From an uncultured virus (IMG/VR IMGVR_UViG_3300021335_000006) (Duplodnaviria > Heunggongvirae > Uroviricota > Caudoviricetes), in IMG/VR virus record IMGVR_UViG_3300021335_000006, positions 62,001-126,000 of that record: a stretch of 64,000 nt of DNA; one strand, 5' to 3'. Positions within the stretch are counted from its first letter, which is position 1. Every line of letters begins with the position of its first letter. The notes beneath the pieces are model-generated. The model saw only the letters and a program-made list of their open reading frames with translations. It ran no database searches and was not told the DNA's origin. The position numbers were made by a program, and so were the translations under genes. Positions 8,678 through 49,892 of the stretch are shown here, in pieces.

Positions 8678-10777
8678 ATGGCAGTTCCATCATACGGTAC
8701 AGACATTGTTACACTAGACGGCTCAGTCTATACTGCGACAGGTGGAACTTCTCTTGTTGTCAATGATTATGCCGCTGTTGGCGGAGGACAGGCTGGTCTT
8801 AACGAAGAAACAGATTACTATCTAATTGGAACAGAATGTATTTCTAAAAACGCATTTGGTAACGGTTCTCAAGAAAAGGGTATTGTTGACGATACAAATG
8901 CGGGTGGAAATATTGCGACAACACTCGCATCAGGTAATAATCCTGGCGGTAATCAGTACGTGTATATTTGGATGTTCTTTAATGCTCCTGCCTCGTTAGC
9001 TACAGCGGTATTGCCCCTCAACCAACGAGGTGGACTACACGCAATCATTGGGCCGAATACAAATAACTATAACGCATATTCCGTTTCCGGCTCAGATTTA
9101 CAGGACTATGGTGCTGACTGGGTTTGTGGATCTATTGACGTTAATGTTACTCCCGCAAATGGTCTTGCGCTAACCACCGTCGGAAATGGCGCAGGAGGAA
9201 ACTATAGTGTTTTCGGCGCAGGAGCAAGCATTCCCACACAAGGCCCGACGAAAGGTGCTCCTTTTGCGATTGAAGGTATTCGAAGAGGTGCATACATTGA
9301 TGCTGTAGAAGGCGAAACGGCCAACCCAGTTACTTTTGCGGGCTTAGAGGGATTTGACGGTGGTGACAACATCAATGGTCGCTTAGGTGTTTTTACTGAA
9401 CGAAGAGGCGTATACATTCTAAACACTGAAGTAAGACTAGGAAGTTCAACTCAGCTTTGTTTTATGCGTGATACATCTGGTGTTACTATTCGAAGACAAA
9501 ATGATGCTACACCTTGGTATTCAAATACTGAAACCGACGGCGGAAAACATAGAATACAAATACTCAATTCTTCTTCTGAGATTGAATGGGAAAATGTAAC
9601 TATTCTTGAAGATGCGATTGATATTCTTATTAATTCGACTGACAATCCTATCGTTAAGTTTACAGCTTGTTCTTTTTTTGGTGTTAGATTACTTCAGTGC
9701 GGTGGTGCGAACACAGAACTGACTCGTTGCACATTTGGAACAACTTCAGCGACGATTACATCTAATACAATGGCTGGAACAAACACTGAAGCAAGAGTTA
9801 TCCAAAATGGTGCTACTATTACTTCTTGTACAGTTAATGGGACAAGCAACACGGCGGAAACATCCGGAATTGAAGTTAGTGGGACTAATGCTACAGATCT
9901 TTCTAAGATCACTAACTGTAACTTTACAGGAAATGGTAGAGCGCTATTACTTGGTCAAATTGCTGGTGGACAAGGAGATGTAACAGTCATATATGATGGG
10001 CATTCATTTACTCCAAACGCACAACTTGGATATAATGATGGAGCAGTTCAATCAGCAACTACAGGCCCGCAAGGAAATTCCGGTGCTGTTATTGAAGTTG
10101 AAGTTTTATCGGGAACAAATTTAATAATTTCTGTATCTAATACAAGTCAGATACCTTCAGTGTATAATACTGGAAGCGGTCAAGTCACTATTCAGGCAGA
10201 TGTTTCGGTGTCAATATCAGGTGTATTAGGAAACTCCGAAGTATCGATAATGCAAAGCCCTTCTCCTTACAGTCAAAACGGAGCAACACGAACTACTTTG
10301 TTCAATGAAGACACTGTGGCTGCTGTAACAGGAACTGATATTGAATTCGTTACTGTACCTCAGGGTGCCGGTCCGGTATTGTTCATAGATAGTACGACAA
10401 CAGATTTTACAAACATTACTGGATTAGCTGTTACAACGCCACCCCAAGTGATTCGTGTAACTCATAGAGATAATCTTGCTTTATTTGATGAGTTCGAGGT
10501 AGTTTCAATATCTGCAAATACTATCGGTGTGACTGCCGTTGGACAAAGCTCTATTAAGCAACAAGATCTGGTAGATTCGCCTGGTGAAACTGTTACTGTA
10601 GAAAAAGTAGATGCGACTTACACATTTAATGTGCCGTCAGGAACTGACATTGATGTGCTTATTTATAGAGTGGGTAGCTTACCTGTTTACTTATTAGAAC
10701 AAACAATTACAACAGAAAATGCGTCTTTTCCTATTTCTCAGTCACTAGATAGAAATTACGATTCGTTTGAAGTGTAG
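8678..10777 (+). CDS. Putative virion structural protein, possible beta-helix region
   Basis: 699 aa G/T/N/S-rich; periodic FTACSF, LTRCTF, ITSCTV and ITNCNF strands; C-terminal LDRNY. Confidence 0.7.
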   Translation: MAVPSYGTDIVTLDGSVYTATGGTSLVVNDYAAVGGGQAGLNEETDYYLIGTECISKNAFGNGSQEKGIVDDTNAGGNIATTLASGNNPGGNQYVYIWMFFNAPASLATAVLPLNQRGGLHAIIGPNTNNYNAYSVSGSDLQDYGADWVCGSIDVNVTPANGLALTTVGNGAGGNYSVFGAGASIPTQGPTKGAPFAIEGIRRGAYIDAVEGETANPVTFAGLEGFDGGDNINGRLGVFTERRGVYILNTEVRLGSSTQLCFMRDTSGVTIRRQNDATPWYSNTETDGGKHRIQILNSSSEIEWENVTILEDAIDILINSTDNPIVKFTACSFFGVRLLQCGGANTELTRCTFGTTSATITSNTMAGTNTEARVIQNGATITSCTVNGTSNTAETSGIEVSGTNATDLSKITNCNFTGNGRALLLGQIAGGQGDVTVIYDGHSFTPNAQLGYNDGAVQSATTGPQGNSGAVIEVEVLSGTNLIISVSNTSQIPSVYNTGSGQVTIQADVSVSISGVLGNSEVSIMQSPSPYSQNGATRTTLFNEDTVAAVTGTDIEFVTVPQGAGPVLFIDSTTTDFTNITGLAVTTPPQVIRVTHRDNLALFDEFEVVSISANTIGVTAVGQSSIKQQDLVDSPGETVTVEKVDATYTFNVPSGTDIDVLIYRVGSLPVYLLEQTITTENASFPISQSLDRNYDSFEV

Positions 10778-21160: not shown

Positions 21161-21706
21161 ATGTCTAAAAATTATGTAAATAACGCTGAGTTCCTTGAAG
21201 CGATAATCTCGTATAAAGAGGTTTGTAGAAAAGCAGAAAGCGAAGGAAAAAACAAGCCTCAGATTCCTAATTATATCGGAGATTGTATTTTACAGATCTC
21301 AAGAAGACTATCAAGCAAGCCTAATTTTGCTGGCTACTCGTATAAAGATGAGATGATCTCTGACGGCCTTGAAAACGCAGTACAAGCGCTCGACAACTTT
21401 GATCCAAACAAATCGAAGAATCCCTTTGCATACTTTACGCAAATTATCTGGTTCGCATTCCTTCGACGAATTGAAAAGGAAAAGAAGCAACTCTATATCA
21501 AACACAAAGTCATTGAGCATTCAATCATGACCGACAGTGTAGTCGATTCAGATGGATCTGATGATACATTTGACATGACGAATACTGAGTTTGCGAACGA
21601 CTACATGAACGATTTCGTAAAAACATACGAAAAGAAAATTGATGAAAAGAAAAAAGCACAAGCCAAGAATAAGAAGAGTGTAGACTTAAGTGAATTCATA
21701 GGATAG
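21161..21706 (+). CDS. gp55: Late-transcription sigma factor
   Basis: YVNNAEFL, KPNFAGYSYKDEMISDG and NPFAYFTQIIWFAFLRRIEKEKKQ motifs. Confidence 0.96.
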   Translation: MSKNYVNNAEFLEAIISYKEVCRKAESEGKNKPQIPNYIGDCILQISRRLSSKPNFAGYSYKDEMISDGLENAVQALDNFDPNKSKNPFAYFTQIIWFAFLRRIEKEKKQLYIKHKVIEHSIMTDSVVDSDGSDDTFDMTNTEFANDYMNDFVKTYEKKIDEKKKAQAKNKKSVDLSEFIG

Positions 21707-34572: not shown

Positions 34573-34961
34573 ATCCTTTTGATTATGTGAACTCGATCAC
34601 GCATTCGAAGAAAAATTTAATGCGTGATACTGAAAACGACACACTTGCTGAACGTGGCTATGAGCCATGGCTTTCAAACAACGCACTGTCTTACTTTCCG
34701 GACACCGTTTTACATGCTAATCTTATGAACATGTATAGCGATCTGGATAATCGTCCACAATTCGAATTTTTACTAAATAGTATTAGACCTAGAAAGAGAT
34801 TTTCTAAGTGGATAAAGAAAAGTGATAACGAAGACTTGAAAGCAATATGCGATCATTATCAATGCAACGAAACGGTTGGCCGAGAGTACTTGTCTTTGTT
34901 ATCGTCTGAACAAATAGACGCTATTAAAAAAGAACAAGAACAAGGCGGTTTAAAAAGATGA
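34569..34961 (+). CDS. gp62: Clamp loader small subunit
   Basis: MNPFDYVNSI, LSYFPDT and RPRKRFSKW motifs. Confidence 0.93.
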   Translation: MNPFDYVNSITHSKKNLMRDTENDTLAERGYEPWLSNNALSYFPDTVLHANLMNMYSDLDNRPQFEFLLNSIRPRKRFSKWIKKSDNEDLKAICDHYQCNETVGREYLSLLSSEQIDAIKKEQEQGGLKR

Positions 34962-35356
34962 CGTTATTGATTGAAGATATGGTTGAAGTCTCTTTAACTC
35001 ATGAAGAGAATTTTTTAAAAGTTAAGGAAACCTTAACGAGAATTGGTATTGCTTCTAAGAAGGATAGAAAGCTATACCAATCTTGTCACATCCTGCACAA
35101 GCAAGGAAAGTATTACATCGTTCATTTTAAAGAACTCTTTATGTTGGACGGCAAGGCGCACGATTTTTCAGAAGACGATTGCGCAAGAAGAAACACAATT
35201 GTTACTCTACTTCAAGAATGGGGGTTGATTAAGGTCGTTCGACCCGAAATGATTTCTTCACCTTCTGCCCCTTTATCACAAATCAAGATACTCCCACATA
35301 AAGAAAAGAGCGAGTGGGAACTTGTTGCTAAATATAGCATTGGTAAAAAACGATAA
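34958..35356 (+). CDS. regA: Translational repressor RegA
   Basis: FLKVKETLTRIGIAS...LYQSCHILHKQGKYYIVHFKELF. Confidence 0.97.
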   Translation: MTLLIEDMVEVSLTHEENFLKVKETLTRIGIASKKDRKLYQSCHILHKQGKYYIVHFKELFMLDGKAHDFSEDDCARRNTIVTLLQEWGLIKVVRPEMISSPSAPLSQIKILPHKEKSEWELVAKYSIGKKR

Positions 35357-40281: not shown

Positions 40282-41349
40282 ATGTCATCACTACTAGAAA
40301 AGCTTCAGAAATCTGGAGCCATAAAACACACTTCGATATTAAATAAGTCTACATTTTTTAATGTGAAGGATAGTATACCAACTGAAATTCCAATCATTAA
40401 TGTTGCTTTGAGTGGACGGTTAGACGGCGGCTTAACGCCTGGACTAACGTTTCTTGCTGGGGAATCAAAGAGCTTTAAATCTTTGCTCGGACTAATGCTT
40501 GTTAAGGCATACATGAAGAAACATGAAGATGCTGTGTGTTTGTTTTACGATTCAGAGTTTGGTATTACACCAGACTATATCGAGTCAAACGGGATTGACA
40601 CTAGTAGAGTGCTTCATATTCCAATTGAACATCTTGAGCAACTGAAGTTTGACATTTCAAAGAGACTAGAAGAAATAGAGCGTGGCGACAAAGTAATTAT
40701 CTTTGTTGACTCTGTAGGCAATCTTGCTTCTAAGAAAGAAGTGGAAGATGCTTTGGACGGAAAGTCTGTTGCTGATATGTCTCGTGCAAAAGTGATGAAA
40801 TCACTCTGGCGAATTGTAACGCCACACTTGACTACAAAAGACATTCCTTGTGTTGCTGTCAATCACACTTATCAGACAATGGAGCTTTATTCTAAAGCAA
40901 TCATGTCCGGTGGTACTGGAGGCATGTATAGTGCAAATCAAGTATTTGTAATTACAAAAGCCCAAGACAAAGACGGGAAAGAGTTGATGGGTTATAACTT
41001 CACTATCAACATTGAGAAGTCACGCTTTGTTCGTGAGAAATCCAAGTTCCCATTCAATGCTCGATTTGATGCTGGAATCAACAAGTGGTCTGGATTACTC
41101 GATCTTGCAACAGAAGGTGGCTTTGTCGTTAAACCTAGCATGGGTTGGTACTCAAAAGTCGATCCAGAAACAGGTGAAGTCGAAGATAAGAAGTATCGAG
41201 CAAAAGATACTGATACAAAAGATTTTTGGCTTCCCATCTTGACAAGCAAGCGCTTTCAAGAGTATATTAGTGACAGATATCAAATCGCCACACGTTCACT
41301 TGTGGTAGACGAACCAGAAGATTATGAAGAGGCTAATCTAGATGATTGA
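40282..41349 (+). CDS. uvsX: RecA-like recombinase UvsX
   Basis: AGESKSFKS, FYDSEFG, DSVGNLASKKE and VNHTY motifs. Confidence 0.96.
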   Translation: MSSLLEKLQKSGAIKHTSILNKSTFFNVKDSIPTEIPIINVALSGRLDGGLTPGLTFLAGESKSFKSLLGLMLVKAYMKKHEDAVCLFYDSEFGITPDYIESNGIDTSRVLHIPIEHLEQLKFDISKRLEEIERGDKVIIFVDSVGNLASKKEVEDALDGKSVADMSRAKVMKSLWRIVTPHLTTKDIPCVAVNHTYQTMELYSKAIMSGGTGGMYSANQVFVITKAQDKDGKELMGYNFTINIEKSRFVREKSKFPFNARFDAGINKWSGLLDLATEGGFVVKPSMGWYSKVDPETGEVEDKKYRAKDTDTKDFWLPILTSKRFQEYISDRYQIATRSLVVDEPEDYEEANLDD

Positions 41350-42724
41350 AAACACAATTCTTGCGTCACTACTTCACAATGAAGAATACATGCGAAGAGT
41401 TGCACCTTTTCTAAGTGAATCTTACTTTTTTGATCTTACTGAGAAGACTGTTTACAGCGCTATTATGTCTTACATCGAAGACTACAATGGCATACCAACA
41501 AAAGAAGCATTGCGAATCAATCTTGAAGAGAAAACAACTCTGACGGAAGATTCCTTTTCTTCTGCTGTTGATATGATCAATGAGTTGAGTTATGATGATC
41601 AGACAGATCTCGACTGGCTAGTAGATAAAACTGAAAAGTTCTGTCAAGACAAGGCCATCTATAATGCAGTCCGTGAATCCATCCTTGTACTAGACAATCA
41701 ACACAAGACTCTAGACAAGGGTGCGATTCCACAATTGCTGAGTGACGCCCTTGGCGTCTCGTTTGATCAGAATGTTGGACACGACTTTCTGGAGCTTTAC
41801 GAAGATCGATATCGCTTTTATCACACGAAAGAAGACAAGATCCCATTCGACATAGATCTGATGAACAAGATCACGAAGGGTGGACTTTCTCGTAAATCTC
41901 TCAGCGTGATTCTTGCTGGAACAGGTGTGGGTAAAACTTTGTTTATGACTCACTGTGCATCTGCTAATCTTCTCTCTGGATTAAATGTTCTGTATATCAC
42001 GATGGAGATGGCTGAAGAACGCATCGCTGAGCGGATCGATGCGAATCTACTTGACGTTACGATGGACACTCTGAGAGAAATGCCTAAAGATGTCTATCTT
42101 AAGAAGGTGCAACGAGTCAAAGAAAAGACTACAGGTAAGTTGATTGTCAAAGAGTATCCAACAGCAAGCGCTGGATCTGGACACTTTCGACATTTGTTAA
42201 ACGAGTTGAAACTGAAAAAGAACTTCACTCCAGATGTTATTTACATTGACTATCTGAATATATGTACAAGTTCTCGTGTGAAGAATGCAAGCGCAAACTC
42301 ATATACAATTGTTAAGGCAATTGCTGAAGAATTGAGAGGGCTTGCTGTCGAGTTTAATGTTCCAATTATGTCTGCGACACAGACTACAAGGAGCGGATAC
42401 TCTAACTCTGATATTGGGCTTGAAGATACCTCTGAGTCTTTTGGACTTCCAGCGACTGCTGACTTCATGTTTGGCGTAGTATCGACAGAGCAACTAGAAG
42501 AGTCTAATCTGGTGATGATCAAGCAATTGAAAAATCGCTGGGGAGATCCAAACTACAAGAAGAGATTCGTTGTCGGCATTGATCGATCTAAGATGAAACT
42601 TTTTGATGCTGATGAGGATGCTCAAAGTGCTGTGATGGATGACTCTGCTCAAGCACCTAAGTCTAACAATGTAGCGACACTCAAAGCGAAAAACTCGAAG
42701 CCAGACTTTTCGAATTTCACATAA
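41342..42724 (+). CDS. gp41: Replicative DNA helicase
   Basis: AGTGVGKT, YITMEMAEE, IDYLNIC and SESFGLPATAD motifs. Confidence 0.97.
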   Translation: MIENTILASLLHNEEYMRRVAPFLSESYFFDLTEKTVYSAIMSYIEDYNGIPTKEALRINLEEKTTLTEDSFSSAVDMINELSYDDQTDLDWLVDKTEKFCQDKAIYNAVRESILVLDNQHKTLDKGAIPQLLSDALGVSFDQNVGHDFLELYEDRYRFYHTKEDKIPFDIDLMNKITKGGLSRKSLSVILAGTGVGKTLFMTHCASANLLSGLNVLYITMEMAEERIAERIDANLLDVTMDTLREMPKDVYLKKVQRVKEKTTGKLIVKEYPTASAGSGHFRHLLNELKLKKNFTPDVIYIDYLNICTSSRVKNASANSYTIVKAIAEELRGLAVEFNVPIMSATQTTRSGYSNSDIGLEDTSESFGLPATADFMFGVVSTEQLEESNLVMIKQLKNRWGDPNYKKRFVVGIDRSKMKLFDADEDAQSAVMDDSAQAPKSNNVATLKAKNSKPDFSNFT

Positions 42725-42746
42725 AAAAAGGGGGCGCAATGCCCCC
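42722..42746 (-). terminator. Intrinsic terminator with U-tract on the minus strand, possibly bidirectional
   Basis: GGGGGC-GCAAT-GCCCCC preceded by an A-run on +, which is a U-tract on -. Confidence 0.75.
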
Positions 42747-42884
42747 TCTTATAAATCAGACTACGTGGCAGGCCAGAACCCCACTGGCATTTAAAATGCT
42801 ACACCTGCTATTCCTATGTGATTGGGTAATAATTACTCTACACACTTGCCTCTTACGAATACCGTATGAACACGCACCCTGACA
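42722..42884 (-). ncRNA. Putative structured late non-coding RNA (~160 nt)
   Basis: Lies between a minus-strand TATAAATA and a minus-strand terminator; multibranch pairing; no ORF in the track. Confidence 0.6.
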
Positions 42885-42885
42885 C

Positions 42886-42893
42886 TATTTATA
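42886..42893 (-). promoter_or_regulatory. T4-type late promoter, minus strand
   Basis: TATTTATA on + equals TATAAATA on -. Confidence 0.7.
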
Positions 42894-42928
42894 CAAATTG
42901 ATTTTTCAATGGCTTATATTCTGGATTT

Positions 42929-42936
42929 TATAAATA
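42929..42936 (+). promoter_or_regulatory. T4-type late promoter
   Basis: Exact TATAAATA, divergent from the 42886 site. Confidence 0.75.
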
Positions 42937-42961
42937 TTATAATACTATTTAAGGGATAGTC

Positions 42962-43678
42962 ATGAGCGCTGCGTCTGATAGATTCGAAAAAATGATAGCA
43001 GAATCTGCAAACTCTATTTCTGGCATAAGAGCTAGTCGGCCTACTGTGGGCACTCAGTACTCAGACGTATTGCTACAAAAGGGGGTCACAAAGACTTGGC
43101 TTGAAGTCAAGATGAATCACACCGACAATCTATCTAATCCTAGAGTATTCTATAAAAATGGAAAGTGGGATACTACTTACACTACCCCCGCTGCGAAAGA
43201 AGCAGTTGATATTCTTAACGATGATCCTAAGACAAAGAAGTTTCTTAAAGATTTGTCTAAGTTTACTGGTATACCCTTAAAACAAATAAAGATACCTACT
43301 ACAAAAGGCGGACTAAAAGAAGAAGGCGCTGTTCCTCTTCATATAATGAAAGCATACTTTGCACAGCCTGGAATCAATCGCTATATAGCAGAGATGAAAA
43401 ACTATGATATGGCGTCTTTAATTACAAAGCATTACACTGTAGGTAAAGCTGAGCCTGCATATTATATGCAAGCCGCAGATGATTTTTATCGGATATCGAG
43501 TAAAAATCCATTTAAAGTGCCTAGTGCTGTTCCCTTGCTAAAAGGTAGCGGTGACTTTAAAGTAAGAATTGCAACTCGTTCGCAGTTTTACGAAGTTCAA
43601 GCGGAATTAAAAATTACGTCAATGCCTAGCAGTAAATACTCGTTAGCGCCTGACTCAAAGAAAAAGAATCCTTTTTAA
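42962..43678 (+). CDS. Hypothetical protein, PD-(D/E)xK nuclease-like
   Basis: FE...YSDVLL...WLEVK pattern. Confidence 0.55.
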   Translation: MSAASDRFEKMIAESANSISGIRASRPTVGTQYSDVLLQKGVTKTWLEVKMNHTDNLSNPRVFYKNGKWDTTYTTPAAKEAVDILNDDPKTKKFLKDLSKFTGIPLKQIKIPTTKGGLKEEGAVPLHIMKAYFAQPGINRYIAEMKNYDMASLITKHYTVGKAEPAYYMQAADDFYRISSKNPFKVPSAVPLLKGSGDFKVRIATRSQFYEVQAELKITSMPSSKYSLAPDSKKKNPF

Positions 43679-44478: not shown

Positions 44479-45705
44479 ATGAAATCGTTTAAAACGTTTT
44501 TGAATGAGTCAAAGAACACACACATGACTCACCTTGAAGACTCTATCATTGATAACGGGGTCGATGGTGCTCGTGACACAATTAACTATCTTCGCTCGTT
44601 GCGTGATATGCTCGCAGGCAAGTCAAAGAGTTCTGTCAACGTTACAGTGAAGTGGGACGGAGCGCCTGCAGTGTTCGCTGGTATCGATCCGAGCGATGGC
44701 AAGTTCTTCGTGGCGAAGAAAGGTATCTTCAATAAGAATCCTAAGATATACAAGACAAATGCAGATATTGATGCTGATACAACAGGTGATTTGAATGAGA
44801 AGATGAAAGTTGCATTGAAACATCTTCCAAGTTTAGGTATTAAAGGAGTTGTTCAAGGTGATTTTTTATTTTCGAAAAGTGATTTACAGACGATGGATAT
44901 TGATGGTGAATCGCATATTACTTTCCATCCTAATACGATTGTTTACGCTGTACCGTCAAAAAGCGACCTCGGTAGAAAAATTAGCAGGGCAGACTTCGGT
45001 GTGGTATGGCATACAACATACAGAGGAGAGTCTTTTGAGTCAATGTCAGCAAGTTTTGGAAAGGAGATTGCAAGTGATCTTAAAACTTCAGCAAAGGTCT
45101 TCTCAGTAGACGCAATGTACAAAGATGTCTCTGGCTCAGCTAATTTTAACAAGAAAGAAACAGCAGAGATTACTGCGATTCTATCACAAGCAGGCAAGAC
45201 GTTCAACAAAGTCAAGCGTAGTACGTTTGATATGATCAGTAAGAATGCTGATATTAATATGAGAATGAACACCTTCATTAACGCTAAGATTCGTAACGAT
45301 CAGTTGCCTAATCCAAAGAAAGTTGCTACCGAGTTTGTATCGTATATCGAAGGCATCTATCAGAAAGAAGAAGACAAGCGCAAGAGCGAGAAAGGCAAAG
45401 CGACACAAAGAGCCAAGCGAGACGAAATCTTAAACTTCTTTAAGAGTAGCCCAGTCAAAGAAATCGAAGATCTGTTTACACTATATAATCTCGTAGCAAA
45501 AGCAAAACTCATGATCATTCGCAAGCTAGAGAAGGCGCAAGGGTTGGGAACATTCTTGAAGACTAAAGACGGGCTTGAAGCAACAGGTCAAGAAGGCTTT
45601 GTTGCGATTGATCACACAGGTAAAAATGTAGTCAAGCTAGTAGACAGATTACAGTTTAGTAAAGCAAACTTTTCTCCCGAATATATCAAGGGATGGGACA
45701 AGTAA
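44479..45705 (+). CDS. DUF6267-like protein with ligase-type nucleotidyltransferase motifs
   Basis: HMTHLED, TVKWDGAP (KxDG), QGDF, EGFV and KLVDR; N-terminus MKSFKTFLNE. Confidence 0.7.
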   Translation: MKSFKTFLNESKNTHMTHLEDSIIDNGVDGARDTINYLRSLRDMLAGKSKSSVNVTVKWDGAPAVFAGIDPSDGKFFVAKKGIFNKNPKIYKTNADIDADTTGDLNEKMKVALKHLPSLGIKGVVQGDFLFSKSDLQTMDIDGESHITFHPNTIVYAVPSKSDLGRKISRADFGVVWHTTYRGESFESMSASFGKEIASDLKTSAKVFSVDAMYKDVSGSANFNKKETAEITAILSQAGKTFNKVKRSTFDMISKNADINMRMNTFINAKIRNDQLPNPKKVATEFVSYIEGIYQKEEDKRKSEKGKATQRAKRDEILNFFKSSPVKEIEDLFTLYNLVAKAKLMIIRKLEKAQGLGTFLKTKDGLEATGQEGFVAIDHTGKNVVKLVDRLQFSKANFSPEYIKGWDK

Positions 45706-46547: not shown

Positions 46548-49500
46548 GTGGAAAAAGAAGAAAAAAAAGAAAATCCGTCTAAGACTAAAAAGAAAGACGA
46601 AACCTTAGTCAAGAACACCATCGAACTCAATCCAACTCTTAATGAGGCAAAAGGTAAAACTGTCGTCCTTGGTTGGGGTCGCATGAATCCAATCACGTCT
46701 GGTCACGAGAAGTTAGCAAACAAAATCAAAGAAGTTGCTAAGAAGCGCTCGGCTACACCCCTTATCTATCTTGGCCAATCACAAGATCCTAAAAAGAATC
46801 CGCTTAGTTACGATGATAAAATAAAGCTAGCGCAAATGGCATTTGGTCGTAATCTTGTAGTCAAGTCAAAAGCAAAGACCATTTTTCAAGTCATGAAAGA
46901 ACTCGAGGCTAAGTTTGACAACGTAATTCTCGTTGTTGGTGCTGATAGAATCTCGGAATTTGATACTCTGCTTAACAAGTACAACGGTAAAGACTTTACC
47001 TTTGACGACATCGAAGTAGTTTCTGCCGGAGAGCGCACAGATCCCGACTCAGATGAAGCTAAGAATATGACTGCTGATACTATGTCTGCTTCTGTTATGC
47101 GTAAGCTAGCGTCTCAGGGCGATCTTGAGGGCTTTAAGAAGGGCCTCCCAAAGAAACTCCAGCGAAACGCTAAGAACATCTACGACATGGTTCGTGGTGG
47201 AATGAAACTCGCTAAACTCGAAGAAGAAATGGAATCACTCGATGAAGTGATGACTATTCAACAACGAAGAAAGCGTGCCCTTACTATGCGTCGATATAAG
47301 ACTAAGATCGCCATGGCTCGTAAGAGAATGCGTAGACGATTTGCAGACGCAAGCAAGCTTAAAACTCGCTCTCGCAAGAAAGCAATTCAACTGATTCGTA
47401 AAAAGGTTGCGGGTAAGCAAGGCGCTAACTATAAAGATCTCAGTCCCGCACAAAAAATGCTCATTGATAAGAAAGTCGCAAAGCGTAAAGCAATCATCGA
47501 CAGAATTGCTAAGAGACTTTTACCTCAGGTCAAGAAAGCTGATCGTCAAAAGTTTATGACGAAAAGCGAAGAAATGAATCCTGTACTGACTCCCGATAAC
47601 GAGACACCAAGACAGAAGCGTTACCATCAGATGTTTAATAAGGAAGGATCAATCAAGCTAGATGGTCGATTCAAAGCATTTAAGAAAAAGCAAAGTCAGT
47701 TTGAAGAAGTCAATGACGTAGAGTTGCTACAGCTTATCGAAGAGATTACTAACACCATCGATGAAAAGTCGCTCAGCGACAATGATCCGTGGGGCATCAA
47801 AAAGCTTAAGTCTGTAACAGTCAATCGAAAGCAATACGCTGTAGCCGCTCAGCTTTTAAAGAAACTACTTGCACGTAAGAAAAAAGAAAAACCCGGTCGT
47901 CATTCTCCAGTTTATTACGCTCAAGTTATTGCAAAGCAATTCGATAATGTAGACGCTAAGACTCTTGCAAAAATGGTTCAAGAAGAAGGTGGCGCAGGTG
48001 ATCGTGGTACTGAAAAAGTAACTAAGCGATACAAGAGAGACACGCCCGGTGAGACTGTCAGCGAGCAAAAGGTTGCACAAGATCCAGACGTAAAAGATCA
48101 GCCTGGGACTCAGCCCAAAAAGTATTACAAGGGACTTTCTGATTCTGAAAAAGAAGCAAGAGCAAAGCAATTCCGTAAAGGCGTAAAAGCGGACGATGAT
48201 AGTCCTAGCTCTTACAAGTCTGCACCGGGCGACGATGATGCGAAGACAAAAGAGTCTAAGCACACTAAAAAGTATCGTCAAATGTATGGGGAGTCTTTGG
48301 AAGAAGGTCCTAACATGGAACGAGCAAAGGATCAGATTAAGAGAATTCGCAATCGAGTCAGAAAAGAGGTTGATCAGATTCAAGATCGTGCGAGAGCTGC
48401 TGATGTTCAGCGTAAGAATCGTAGTACTCGTCCTCGGTTGGCAACTGAAACATATGAGTTGACTGAAGAGTCAAAAGAAGCATTGATGAAAAAGGCTGAT
48501 AAGTCCGGAATTCCATATAGTATTCTCAAAAAAGTTTATGATCGGGGAATGGCAGCGTGGAAGACAGGGCATCGCCCAGGTGCTACTCAACAGCAGTGGG
48601 CGTATGCTCGTGTCAATTCGTTTATCACTAAGGGTAAAGGAACTTGGGGCGGAGCAGATAAAGATCTAGCATCTAAGGTCAAGAAGGAATCGGTCAACGA
48701 AGAAGTCAACATGAAAAATGTTGATAAACTCAAGACTGCCGCCAGAGACTTTAGCAAAAACAAGAGCAGAAACTTTCAGTCAATCGAAGATGCACTATTA
48801 ACGATTGTGCAGTCGATGCGGGTTTTAGGGAAAAGCACTTCTGGGCGGACTGATTATAAGCACGAAGGAATCATTGATAAAGAAATCTCAAGAATCAATA
48901 ATATCTCTAGTAAAGCATACGGTACAGAAGAAGGTAAAGAGATAAAAAGCCTTCTTACTAAACACGGGCTTGTAACTAAGACAGGTAGCACATACAGTCC
49001 AATGATGGATTTGATTTACGAGTCGGTAAATGAAGCAGTTTCTCCCGCACAGCAAGCGGCTATTGCTATCTCTAAGAAAGAGCGAGGCGAAAAGCCTAAG
49101 AAGACTTTTAAAGAAGCTCGCAAGAGTCGAAAAATGTCTGCTCAAGATCGCTTGTGGAAAAGCTATAACGCTTATACCAAAAGAACAACTGGTAAAAGCG
49201 CAGACGAACGTGTAAAAGAACTTGAGCAAATGATCCAAAAAATGAAAAAGGAGCGAGAGGCTCTAGACGAACAAGATCCTTGTTGGGATGGATATAAGCA
49301 AGTTGGAATGAAGAAAGGGAAGAAAGGTAAGCCTGTTCCAAACTGCGTGAAAGAAACTGTTCGAAGCAAGACAATCAAAGTCGGTGAAGACGCTATCGGC
49401 GCTGATGAAACTCACTATGCTCTCGTAAAGGAAAGAGAAGTAGTTGCAATCGGCAATAAAGAGGATATGTTGTCACTTCACAGAGAAGAAGGTGGACGTG

Positions 49501-49892
49501 TTTGGGTATCAACAAAGCAAGTGGGAGATCTTGTTGAAGAAGTTACTCAACAGCAGATCAACGATCTCGAAAAGTTTGCAGATCGCTTGCTCAACAAGTT
49601 TGACGTAGACATCGAATTTACGAGACACTTCGCTGATCGACTCAATGATCCTCGCAACAAGCCTGCTATTACAGTTGCTGAGTTACAACGACTCTTTAAG
49701 AAGATGGCAGACAACAAGGGTAAGCGAATCAAGAAGCACGGTAACGCTGAAGCTGTCCTCAAAGATATGCAATCGGATCTGAATCTTCCCGTTGTTGTAA
49801 ACTGGAAGAACGGTGAGTTCGAAGTTGTAAACAAAACAATCATGCGTAAGAAAGCATTTAAGACGCCTAATCCAGTTATTAAGTACGAGTGA
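46548..49892 (+). CDS. Large modular protein with N-terminal cytidylyltransferase-like domain
   Basis: GRMNPITSGHEKL (HxGH-like), VVGADR, SAGER and MSASVMR, followed by many short modules; GTG start after GAGGA. Confidence 0.8.
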   Translation: MEKEEKKENPSKTKKKDETLVKNTIELNPTLNEAKGKTVVLGWGRMNPITSGHEKLANKIKEVAKKRSATPLIYLGQSQDPKKNPLSYDDKIKLAQMAFGRNLVVKSKAKTIFQVMKELEAKFDNVILVVGADRISEFDTLLNKYNGKDFTFDDIEVVSAGERTDPDSDEAKNMTADTMSASVMRKLASQGDLEGFKKGLPKKLQRNAKNIYDMVRGGMKLAKLEEEMESLDEVMTIQQRRKRALTMRRYKTKIAMARKRMRRRFADASKLKTRSRKKAIQLIRKKVAGKQGANYKDLSPAQKMLIDKKVAKRKAIIDRIAKRLLPQVKKADRQKFMTKSEEMNPVLTPDNETPRQKRYHQMFNKEGSIKLDGRFKAFKKKQSQFEEVNDVELLQLIEEITNTIDEKSLSDNDPWGIKKLKSVTVNRKQYAVAAQLLKKLLARKKKEKPGRHSPVYYAQVIAKQFDNVDAKTLAKMVQEEGGAGDRGTEKVTKRYKRDTPGETVSEQKVAQDPDVKDQPGTQPKKYYKGLSDSEKEARAKQFRKGVKADDDSPSSYKSAPGDDDAKTKESKHTKKYRQMYGESLEEGPNMERAKDQIKRIRNRVRKEVDQIQDRARAADVQRKNRSTRPRLATETYELTEESKEALMKKADKSGIPYSILKKVYDRGMAAWKTGHRPGATQQQWAYARVNSFITKGKGTWGGADKDLASKVKKESVNEEVNMKNVDKLKTAARDFSKNKSRNFQSIEDALLTIVQSMRVLGKSTSGRTDYKHEGIIDKEISRINNISSKAYGTEEGKEIKSLLTKHGLVTKTGSTYSPMMDLIYESVNEAVSPAQQAAIAISKKERGEKPKKTFKEARKSRKMSAQDRLWKSYNAYTKRTTGKSADERVKELEQMIQKMKKEREALDEQDPCWDGYKQVGMKKGKKGKPVPNCVKETVRSKTIKVGEDAIGADETHYALVKEREVVAIGNKEDMLSLHREEGGRVWVSTKQVGDLVEEVTQQQINDLEKFADRLLNKFDVDIEFTRHFADRLNDPRNKPAITVAELQRLFKKMADNKGKRIKKHGNAEAVLKDMQSDLNLPVVVNWKNGEFEVVNKTIMRKKAFKTPNPVIKYE

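What the first reader, a model, noticed from the sequence alone, without database searches (positions are those of the whole stretch)
42722..42893. Self-contained structured non-coding RNA on the minus strand under a late promoter
Seen: although all protein genes are on +, this gap carries a minus-strand TATAAATA (42893-42886) and a hairpin whose U-tract is on the minus strand (42746-42722). The RNA between them folds by eye into a multibranch structure. It has a closing stem UCAGG..UGCGUG/CACGUA..UCUGA, hairpin UACG/CGUA, an arm UGUG..GUAAU/AUUAC..CACA, and a junction GCAGG/CCUGC enclosing GCAUUU/AAAUGC and CCAG/CUGG. It is not tRNA-like. Inference: an abundant late phage sRNA of unknown function, such as a protein sponge, an anti-defence decoy or a packaged RNA.
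Basis: partly seen in the sequence, partly recalled or inferred. Interest (0 to 1): 0.75.

Follow-up and report, generated by a model that had tools for sequence, protein, structure and literature searches.

The report
New structured RNA gene in marine phages
The gap after the helicase gene of this marine T4-like phage holds a small gene for a folded, non-coding RNA with its own late promoter and terminator, one member of a large and apparently undescribed family whose function is still unknown.

Summary
At 42723-42893 (minus strand) there is an exact T4-type late promoter box (TATAAATA), a ~125-nt core that folds into a four-way junction, and a strong intrinsic terminator whose U-tract abuts the gp41 stop codon. 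Folding energy of the single sequence is not better than chance (z -1.7; core z 0.0). The evidence is comparative. A covariance model finds one copy in this phage record and members (46-122 bits) in 15 of 80 gp41 loci from IMG/VR and in 63 of 80 metagenome loci examined. In 68 non-redundant members, 91.6% of cells pair (71.4% shuffled; 26-53% slid) and 30 of 31 pairs show compensatory changes. G-U outnumbers A-C 143:27, which fixes the strand. TATAAATA lies upstream in 66 of 73 distinct copies and a terminator downstream in 70 of 74. In some lineages the whole unit is inverted relative to its neighbours. Invariant are GGAA (junction), loop UGGGGUU and nearly all of AGAGGCAAG. There is no Rfam match. 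It was not found in 8 cultured T4-like genomes, in GenBank phages by blastn, or in the bacterial genomes tried. Transcription itself is unobserved. My best guess is a trans-acting folded RNA recognised by a protein. A 2023 catalogue of IMG/VR RNA candidates could not be checked.

The parts
42886..42893 (-). T4-type late promoter box TATAAATA of the RNA gene
   Evidence: Exact match. An exact TATAAATA lies within 70 nt upstream in 66 of 73 distinct family copies, and 6 more have a one-off variant.
42756..42882 (-). RNA core, a four-way junction closed by P1 (42882-42871 pairs with 42767-42756)
   Evidence: CM hit 42751-42889, 100.6 bits, E 7e-26. All 7 P1 pairs in the model show compensatory changes.
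42854..42866 (-). P2 hairpin (UACGG/UCGUA); its closing U-A pair is invariant
   Evidence: U-A in 68 of 68; the other 4 pairs covary.
42845..42853 (-). Junction strand J2/3, AGAGGCAAG, nearly invariant
   Evidence: 65-67 of 68 per position. Note that 61 of the 68 were found with a pattern that required this motif. The 7 pattern-independent members keep the GGCA core.
42817..42844 (-). P3 arm (UGUG/CACA at its base); the distal part varies in length and sequence
   Evidence: 5 of 5 pairs have compensatory changes; 79.9% of cells paired. Spacer length ranges 11-34 nt.
42808..42816 (-). Junction strand J3/4 holding the invariant GGAA (GGAAUAG, 42814-42808)
   Evidence: GGAA in 68 of 68, including the 7 members found without the pattern.
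42768..42808 (-). P4 (6 bp), the optional hairpin P4a (42799-42787), and P4b (42786-42784 with 42776-42774)
   Evidence: P4 99.0% and P4b 99.5% of cells paired, and every pair covaries. P4a is absent in 20 of 68.
42777..42783 (-). Invariant 7-nt hairpin loop UGGGGUU
   Evidence: 68 of 68. The 3 closing pairs change freely (CG, AU, UA, GC).
42723..42750 (-). Intrinsic terminator of the RNA gene (stem 42750-42726, U-tract 42729-42723)
   Evidence: A hairpin followed by a T-run is found in 70 of 74 distinct copies.
41342..42724 (+). gp41 replicative helicase (context); its stop codon abuts the RNA's U-tract
   Evidence: Pfam DnaB_C. gp41 lies within two ORFs of the RNA in 46 of 66 distinct copies.
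42929..42936 (+). Late promoter box of the next gene (42962-43678), diverging from the RNA's promoter (context)

Best explanation
This is a gene for a small non-coding RNA of about 155 nt.

Shown:
- The element is a conserved, strand-specific, base-paired structure. It is a four-way junction of P1, P2, P3 and P4; P4 carries an optional side hairpin and ends in a 3-bp stem capped by the invariant loop UGGGGUU.
- It does not encode a protein.
- It always carries a T4-type late promoter box a few bases before P1 and an intrinsic terminator 10-25 nt after P1.
- It moves and inverts as one unit.
- It is single-copy in this phage record.
- It belongs to a large family in uncultured aquatic T4-like myoviruses, usually just after gp41 or after a ~65-aa ORF that follows gp41.

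Inferred:
- The phage's late transcription machinery (a gp55 homologue is encoded at 21161-21703) transcribes it from the minus strand late in infection.
- The RNA acts in trans as a folded particle.
- The helices serve only as scaffold, since they covary freely and two arms are dispensable or variable. Sequence invariance is confined to the two purine-rich junction strands (AGAGGCAAG, GGAAUAG) and the G-rich loop, so these form the recognition surface.
- The partner is most likely a protein of phage or host, held as a ribonucleoprotein or sequestered as by a decoy.

My odds: real RNA gene 0.93; late transcription 0.8; recognition of the folded core by a protein rather than linear base-pairing about 0.45.
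For: - Covariation: on the MAFFT alignment of 61 non-redundant copies, 88.0% of cells pair against 72.1% shuffled (0 of 500 shuffles reach it) and 29-55% when slid. 25 of 31 pairs have double changes.
- On the model-fitted alignment of 68, 91.6% pair against 71.4% shuffled. 30 of 31 pairs have double changes, and 409 cells are compensatory against 111.
- The 13 column pairs with the highest corrected mutual information are all pairs of the model.
- Strand: G-U/U-G 143 cells against A-C/C-A 27.
- Own transcription signals: TATAAATA in 66 of 73 copies and a terminator in 70 of 74.
- Orientation relative to gp41: 9 minus and 6 plus among 15 members in 80 gp41 loci.
- Not coding: the spacers between invariant blocks fall in all classes mod 3 (29/18/16 and 36/16/11).
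- Not cis-regulatory: in the window the RNA runs into the antisense of gp41, and in co-directional lineages the next gene has its own TATAAATA after the terminator.
- Invariant positions lie only in junctions and one loop.
- Complements of the invariant strands are not enriched on the mRNA strand of the window. AACCCCA occurs once, at the locus itself, against 0.9 expected. TTGCCTC occurs 2 times against 2.1, and CTATTCC once against 1.5.
- A gp55-like sigma and gp45 are encoded in the window.
Against: - No transcript has been seen, and no RNA run holding the locus could be examined.
- Single-sequence folding energy is unremarkable, and the opposite strand folds slightly better in the window.
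- The apparent invariance of AAGAGGCAAG, GGAANAG and TGGGGTT is partly built in, because 61 of the 68 aligned copies were found with a pattern requiring them. Only 7 are independent.
- Alignment A2 was fitted to the structure, which favours pairing counts.
- Many copies are stop-free over 90% or more of their length in some frame (32 of 68 on the RNA strand, 41 of 68 on the other). The window has a 47-aa + strand ORF at 42739-42882.
- No partner protein was identified. The neighbouring small ORF is absent from the window's record and occurs without the RNA elsewhere.
- The RNA has a terminator with a U-tail and a 9-nt conserved unpaired strand, which also fits a base-pairing sRNA.
Confidence: 0.45

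Rival explanations
1. It is a base-pairing regulatory sRNA. The unpaired AGAGGCAAG strand or the UGGGGUU loop is a seed that pairs with a host or phage RNA, and the terminator hairpin with its U-tail serves as a chaperone-binding module.
For: It is an independent gene with an intrinsic terminator and U-tract. It has 9-nt and 7-nt invariant unpaired stretches. The linker before the terminator is A/U-rich. The complement of the loop (AACCCCA) occurs in the RNase P RNA of 3 of 5 bacterial genomes fetched; this is a lead only, since about 0.5 such matches are expected by chance across the stable RNAs of a cell (my estimate).
Against: Complementary words are not enriched on the window's mRNA strand. 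Three separate invariant blocks set in a compact four-way junction are unusual for seed-type sRNAs. The family spans phages whose gp41 differs by 40% and which probably infect different hosts, yet the blocks never change, so a target would have to be equally invariant. The host is unknown, so host targets could not be tested.
Confidence: 0.2
2. It is a stand-alone small-molecule aptamer or a ribozyme. The invariant junction and loop would form a pocket for a metabolite, ion or signalling nucleotide (acting as a sponge), or a catalytic core.
For: The conservation pattern is the one typical of riboswitch aptamers and small ribozymes: helices covary, junction and loop are invariant, and peripheral arms are optional. 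All invariant blocks are G/A-rich.
Against: No Rfam riboswitch or ribozyme model matches, even at E<=10. There is no expression platform and no regulated downstream gene. No candidate ligand and no cleavage-site signature was found. No tertiary covariation appears beyond the helices.
Confidence: 0.12
3. It is a tRNA-shaped mimic that is bound or consumed by a tRNA-directed enzyme, for example a host anticodon nuclease, a processing enzyme or a modification enzyme.
For: The topology resembles a cloverleaf. There are four helices, and the 3' strand of P4 runs into the 3' strand of P1 with 0-1 nt between them, as the T arm runs into the acceptor stem. The last arm ends in a 7-nt loop.
Against: ARAGORN finds nothing, and no tRNA, tmRNA or tRNA-like Rfam model matches. 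The junction strands are 9 and 7-9 nt long rather than 1-2 and 4-5. The loop has no T-loop or anticodon-loop signature. No CCA follows P1. T4's own tRNA-cluster RNAs are not matched by the model.
Confidence: 0.08
4. It is not an RNA gene. The conservation would reflect a DNA-level signal (clustered promoter and bidirectional terminator, or a replication or packaging site) or a short protein on the + strand.
For: The site is the boundary between the replication module and a late gene block, with diverging late promoters 36 bp apart. The + strand has a 47-aa ORF. Stop-free frames are frequent. The hairpin could also end gp41 transcription.
Against: Compensatory changes in 30 of 31 pairs and a 143:27 excess of G-U over A-C show selection on a single-stranded fold of one strand. 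Spacers between conserved blocks do not keep a reading frame. The window ORF's ATG lies in the terminator loop, and the ATG at that place in L022 opens only a 9-codon frame (read by eye). The unit keeps its own promoter and terminator when inverted.
Confidence: 0.04

Closest known systems
Phage T4 small stable RNAs rnaC and rnaD (species 1 and 2 RNAs)
   Same: Both are small (119-139 nt) non-coding RNAs encoded by a T4-type phage with unknown biological roles. [quoted passage not shown]
   Different: The T4 RNAs lie in the tRNA cluster beside tRNA-Arg. That they are cut out of the tRNA precursor is recalled, not from a call. The RNA here is a separate unit with its own late promoter and terminator next to gp41. 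The model does not match the T4 genome at rnaC/rnaD; its best hit anywhere is 12.2 bits, E 0.5.
Orphan structured RNA candidates found by comparative genomics in viruses (the 'DNAVirus_X' csRNAs of Fremin, Bhatt and Kyrpides 2023, PMC10690425)
   Same: They draw on the same data source (intergenic regions of IMG/VR) and the same kind of evidence (covariation), and their function is unknown. A family this large and this well supported may be one of their 8,495 candidates (sections 2.1 and supplement legends read).
   Different: I could not establish identity. The alignment and CM archive and the position file could not be opened, and the tables I could search hold none of the three motifs. The paper's text discusses tRNA-like structures, terminators and cis elements upstream of gp20 and gp32, going by its section titles.
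Protein-binding bacterial RNAs (6S RNA, CsrB/RsmZ, Y RNA). Resemblance in proposed mode of action only
   Same: These are stable, trans-acting RNAs recognised as folded objects through a few invariant unpaired nucleotides. This characterisation is recalled knowledge, not a call.
   Different: There is no sequence or structural homology and no Rfam match. The RNA has only one GGA-type motif, not the repeats of CsrB. It has no long bubble hairpin like 6S. No Ro/Rsr-type partner gene was seen in the window.
Hfq-type base-pairing sRNAs
   Same: Both have an independent promoter, an intrinsic terminator with a U-tail and a conserved unpaired stretch.
   Different: The core is a compact four-way junction with three invariant blocks, and no complementary targets are enriched in the phage window.

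Membership tests
Any Rfam 15 family (4227 models) | Match at or above the family's gathering score | tested here: not met
   0 matches in the whole window at gathering scores. At E<=10 over 42650-42980 there were 11 weak matches (9.7-25.4 bits against cut-offs of 40-229 bits); the three whose alignments I viewed are driven by the terminator hairpin.
tRNA / tmRNA | Cloverleaf with anticodon and T-loop signatures recognised by ARAGORN | tested here: not met
   0 genes in the window.
T4 rnaC / rnaD | Homology to the T4 RNAs and a position in the tRNA cluster | tested here: not met
   The model finds nothing at T4 70908-71171; the best hit in the T4 genome is 12.2 bits elsewhere. The window has no tRNA cluster.
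Bacterial RNase P RNA (type A), considered because of short shared words | Significant sequence or structure similarity to RF00010 | tested here: not met
   No RF00010 match at E<=10. In 20 local alignments of 4 family members against 5 fetched RNase P RNAs, 4 to 187 of 200 shuffles reached the observed score (16 of the 20 had 19 or more), so there is no convincing similarity.
Riboswitch / cis-regulatory leader | Sits upstream of, and is co-transcribed with, the gene it controls | tested here: not met
   In the window and in 9 of 15 gp41-locus members the RNA points away from all genes and ends at the gp41 (or small ORF) stop. In co-directional members its terminator is followed by a separate TATAAATA for the next gene.
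Self-contained sRNA gene (generic) | Own promoter and own terminator, conserved with the RNA | tested here: met
   TATAAATA in 66 of 73 copies (plus 6 one-off variants) and a terminator in 70 of 74. The unit inverts as a whole.
Self-contained sRNA gene (generic) | A discrete transcript is made | not testable with these tools
   No RNA run was on offer for this locus.
Structured RNA (generic) | Compensatory base changes above controls | tested here: met
csRNA catalogue of PMC10690425 | Overlap with a listed DNAVirus_X position or alignment | not testable with these tools
   Supplementary alignment and position archives were too large to be opened.

The most novel reading that the evidence does not exclude
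The RNA is a phage-made decoy or sponge. On this reading it is a stand-alone folded RNA, produced in bulk from a late promoter, whose invariant G/A-rich pocket captures a host defence component. The captured component would be either a protein that senses late phage products or a nucleotide second messenger. That would make it an RNA-based counter-defence in the most abundant group of marine myoviruses. Nothing here excludes this, and nothing here tests it.
Probability: 0.12. Interest if true: 0.9.

Novelty: new variant of a known kind. Interest (0 to 1): 0.62.

Why it matters

This element is a clean candidate for such an RNA:
- It is an independent gene with phage-specific late signals.
- Its fold is supported by compensatory changes in nearly every pair.
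- It has a handful of invariant nucleotides that point to a specific partner.

It offers a defined 100-130-nt object for pull-down, probing and structure work. It is also a marker for a lineage of uncultured aquatic myoviruses. If the partner proves to be a host factor or a defence signal, it would be a new kind of phage counter-measure. If the partner is a phage protein, it would add an RNA component to late T4-type biology.

Tried and rejected
- Rfam at gathering and at E<=10: nothing but terminator noise.
- blastn of four diverse family members against 50,697 GenBank phage records: only short terminator-type matches or no match.
- tblastn of the neighbouring small ORF against the same records: no match.
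- Covariance model on whole genomes of Melnitz-1, P-RSM1, phiM12, phiN3, DLP_6, Mosig, P-TIM40 and T4: best 12-17 bits, and the four weak hits whose alignments I viewed (in P-TIM40, phiM12 and phiN3) lack the P4b loop.
The model found nothing in 5 genomes or in 151 sampled Alphaproteobacteria, searched with strict filters, so 'not found in those searched'.
- Expression: no RNA holder was listed for the locus. The 8 holders are recorded or guessed as DNA ('DNA?'), from seawater, marine, marsh and wetland metagenomes, and 3 may be the source sample. No reads were laid.
- Earlier findings of the scan were not open.
- Relatives cannot be drawn for a virus record.
- Coding: stop-free frames looked frequent, but frame is not kept between conserved blocks.
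- Targets within the window for the invariant strands: none above chance.
- Resemblance of GGAAUAG to the ribosome-binding region of the next gene: not general, because the phage's genes use ordinary UAAGGAG-type sites.
- RNase P RNA likeness: rejected.
- Partner genes: DUF6267 lies downstream of gp41 with or without the RNA. The small ORF next to the RNA in 44 of 66 copies is absent from this record, occurs without the RNA, has no Pfam, PHROG or PDB-sequence match of note, and its model (pLDDT 82.8, three strands and a helix) has no Foldseek match at E<=0.001. The 238-aa neighbour has no family.
- Literature: five full-text searches gave no description of this RNA; their titles and abstract starts were seen. 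Only PMC3014915 (passages) and PMC10690425 (outline, section 2.1, supplement legends) were read.
Full report
**What is there**

The window is part of a 130.8-kb IMG/VR record of a T4-type myovirus. All genes run on the + strand. They include sheath, tube, portal, prohead protease, scaffold, major capsid, UvsY, UvsW, a gp55-like sigma, gp46/47, gp45, gp44/62, RegA, DNA polymerase, UvsX and the gp41 helicase. The capsid protein is closest to Sinorhizobium phages phiM12 and phiN3 (68.6%), then to Melnitz and Mosig.

gp41 ends at 42724 and the next gene starts at 42962. On the minus strand of that 237-bp gap lie three elements:
- an exact TATAAATA at 42893-42886;
- about 125 nt of sequence with no ORF of 30 aa or more lying within it;
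- a 10-bp G+C-rich hairpin (42750-42726) followed by seven U.

The window has 13 TATAAATA against about 3 expected. Eleven are on the + strand; the five whose surroundings I read (at 2834, 5789, 10782, 15764 and 42929) lie in gaps just before genes. The one at 42893 is the only intergenic one on the minus strand.

**Is it more than chance?**

On the single sequence, no. The minus-strand fold has z = -1.69 and the + strand z = -2.47. The core alone has z = 0.03, and the median over the family is -0.87.

The case rests on relatives:
- nhmmer with the gap found homologues in 10 of 80 loci fetched around gp41 relatives.
- A covariance model built from 61 non-redundant copies scores true members at 46-122 bits.
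- The model finds one copy in the window and one in the whole record.
- It finds members in 15 of the 80 gp41 loci and in 63 of the 80 metagenome loci I passed to it. Of the other 17, one scored 23 bits and 16 nothing, so they are chance pattern matches.

**The fold**

The structure I wrote down from the window and its relatives has six helices. On the MAFFT alignment, 88.0% of cells pair (shuffles 72.1%, none of 500 as high; partners slid by 1-3 columns 29-55%). 25 of 31 pairs have changes on both sides. RNAalifold on its own recovered P2, P4 and P4b.

On the model-fitted alignment of 68 copies, 91.6% of cells pair and 30 of 31 pairs have compensatory changes. Compensatory cells number 409 against 111 in shuffles. 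This alignment includes 7 copies found without the pattern. It leans towards the structure because it was fitted to it.

An independent mutual-information ranking puts 13 model pairs in the top 13 places and shows no further helix or pseudoknot. G-U pairs outnumber A-C 143 to 27, so the selected fold is that of the strand downstream of TATAAATA.

Invariant in 68 of 68 are the closing U-A of P2, GGAA in the junction before P4, and the loop UGGGGUU. AGAGGCAAG between P2 and P3 is kept in 65-67 of 68. Its variants in distant members keep GGCA. P3 varies from 11 to 34 nt, and the side hairpin P4a is missing in 20 of 68.

**A gene of its own**

Among distinct copies with enough flank, 66 of 73 have an exact TATAAATA within 70 nt upstream and 6 more have a one-letter variant. 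It lies mostly 30-46 nt before the first invariant block, which is a few bases before P1. 70 of 74 have a hairpin plus T-run downstream.

The RNA sits after gp41 (within two ORFs in 46 of 66 copies). In 44 of 66 it sits directly after a ~65-aa ORF that follows gp41. In those 44 it is either convergent with that ORF (23) or co-directional (21). Among the 15 members in gp41 loci, 9 are antisense to gp41 and 6 are sense. In every case the promoter box and terminator keep their places relative to the RNA.

In the co-directional form the next gene has a second TATAAATA after the RNA's terminator. This argues against a riboswitch-like leader.

The element is accessory. 9 of the 11 closest gp41 relatives with at least 700 nt of downstream sequence carry it, against 6 of the 67 more distant ones. 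Two loci I read through lack it.

**Not coding**

A caution first: many copies are stop-free in some frame (32 of 68 on the RNA strand, 41 of 68 on the other), and the window has a 47-aa + strand ORF. However, the distances between the invariant blocks fall in all three classes mod 3 (29/18/16 and 36/16/11). That ORF's ATG sits in the terminator loop, and the ATG at the same place in L022 is followed by a stop after eight codons (read by eye).

**What it is not**

- No Rfam family matches, and there is no tRNA or tmRNA.
- It is not T4 rnaC or rnaD.
- It is not in 8 cultured T4-type genomes scanned with the model.
- It is not in GenBank phages by blastn with four members.
- It was not found in the bacterial genomes tried. 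Those searches were samples with limited sensitivity.
- Short words shared with bacterial RNase P RNA made me test that idea. Local alignment scores against five fetched RNase P RNAs gave no convincing similarity; in 16 of the 20 comparisons 19 or more of 200 shuffles scored as well, and in the other four 4 to 10 did.

**How it most likely works**

Shown: a conserved, strand-specific four-way junction with its own late-type promoter box and terminator. It is non-coding, single-copy, and mobile as a unit.

Inferred: late transcription, from the promoter consensus and the gp55 and gp45 homologues; and action in trans, since nothing lies downstream to regulate.

The conservation pattern is freely covarying helices, dispensable arms, and invariance only in two purine-rich junction strands and one G-rich loop. 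This says the folded core is read by something specific. I favour a protein partner, forming a ribonucleoprotein or being sequestered as by a decoy, at about 0.45.

The rivals and my odds:
- Base-pairing sRNA: 0.2. It is favoured by the U-tailed terminator and the 9-nt unpaired strand. Against it are the lack of complements in the window and the invariance across divergent phages.
- Ligand-binding aptamer or ribozyme: 0.12.
- tRNA-shaped mimic: 0.08.
- DNA-level or coding explanation: 0.04.

No partner was identified. The neighbouring small ORF is a tempting candidate by position, but it is missing from this record, which is 74% complete. It also occurs without the RNA and has no informative fold match.

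**Known or new**

Five full-text searches gave no description of this RNA.

The closest precedent in kind is T4's pair of small RNAs of unknown role (PMC3014915, passage).

One caveat is real. Fremin, Bhatt and Kyrpides screened IMG/VR 3.0 intergenic regions and list 8,495 unnamed candidates of 29-151 nt (PMC10690425, section 2.1). A family of this size may well be among them, whole or in part. The archives with their alignments and positions could not be opened here, and the tables that could be searched hold none of the motifs.

Even if it is listed, its anatomy has, as far as I could see, not been described. That anatomy includes the late promoter, the terminator, inversion as a unit, the invariant blocks, and the synteny with gp41.

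**Verdict**

This is a real and well-supported new family of phage RNA genes. Its function is open, its transcription is unobserved, and its host is unknown.

Noticed in passing
L019:4383-4586 (+), L022:1119-1307 (+), L007:3958-4152 (+) and 41 others: A family of ~60-70-aa proteins with the conserved C-terminal motif LNLGxGFDGxTPxFF lies between gp41 and the RNA in 44 of 66 distinct copies. It has no Pfam or PDB match and one weak PHROG hit. The AlphaFold model (pLDDT 82.8) shows three strands and a helix. The family is absent from the window's record and from GenBank phages.
   Followed up: partly
window 44479-45702 (+) and 46548-49889 (+): The DUF6267 protein (408 aa) carries a KWDG word that recalls motif I of nucleotidyl-transferases and ligases (resemblance recalled, not tested). 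PHROG 455 covers both this protein and the N-terminal cytidylyltransferase-like part of the 1114-aa protein two genes on, so the two are fused in some phages. DUF6267 recurs downstream of gp41 with or without the RNA.
   Followed up: partly
window 42886-42936: Two exact late promoter boxes diverge from one 51-bp stretch. The minus one drives the RNA, and the plus one (42929-42936) drives the 238-aa gene at 42962. The RNA gene marks the switch from the replication module to a block of late genes.
   Followed up: partly
window 42722-42750: The terminator is preceded by A7 on the + strand and followed by T7 on the minus strand. It may also stop gp41 transcripts, though its + strand tail (TCTTAT) is weak.
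   Followed up: no
window 10660-10667 (-): This is the only other minus-strand TATAAATA in the window. It lies inside the + strand gene 8678-10777. I did not check it for a downstream structure or terminator.
   Followed up: no
L337, L338, L340 (bacterial RNase P RNAs fetched for comparison): The exact complement of the invariant loop (AACCCCA, preceded by GGCAAGGUA or GGCUAGGUA) occurs in the RNase P RNA of 3 of 5 bacterial genomes examined. A 7-mer match of this kind is expected by chance somewhere among a cell's stable RNAs, so this is a lead only.
   Followed up: partly
window 34958-35353 (+): This is a clear homologue of the T4 translational repressor RegA (Pfam Translat_reg, E 1.6e-42). 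It is an RNA-binding protein made by the same phage. No link to the RNA was tested.
   Followed up: no
window 42739-42882 (+): A 47-aa ORF on the gene strand overlaps the RNA core. Its ATG is in the terminator loop, and the frame is not kept in relatives.
   Followed up: yes
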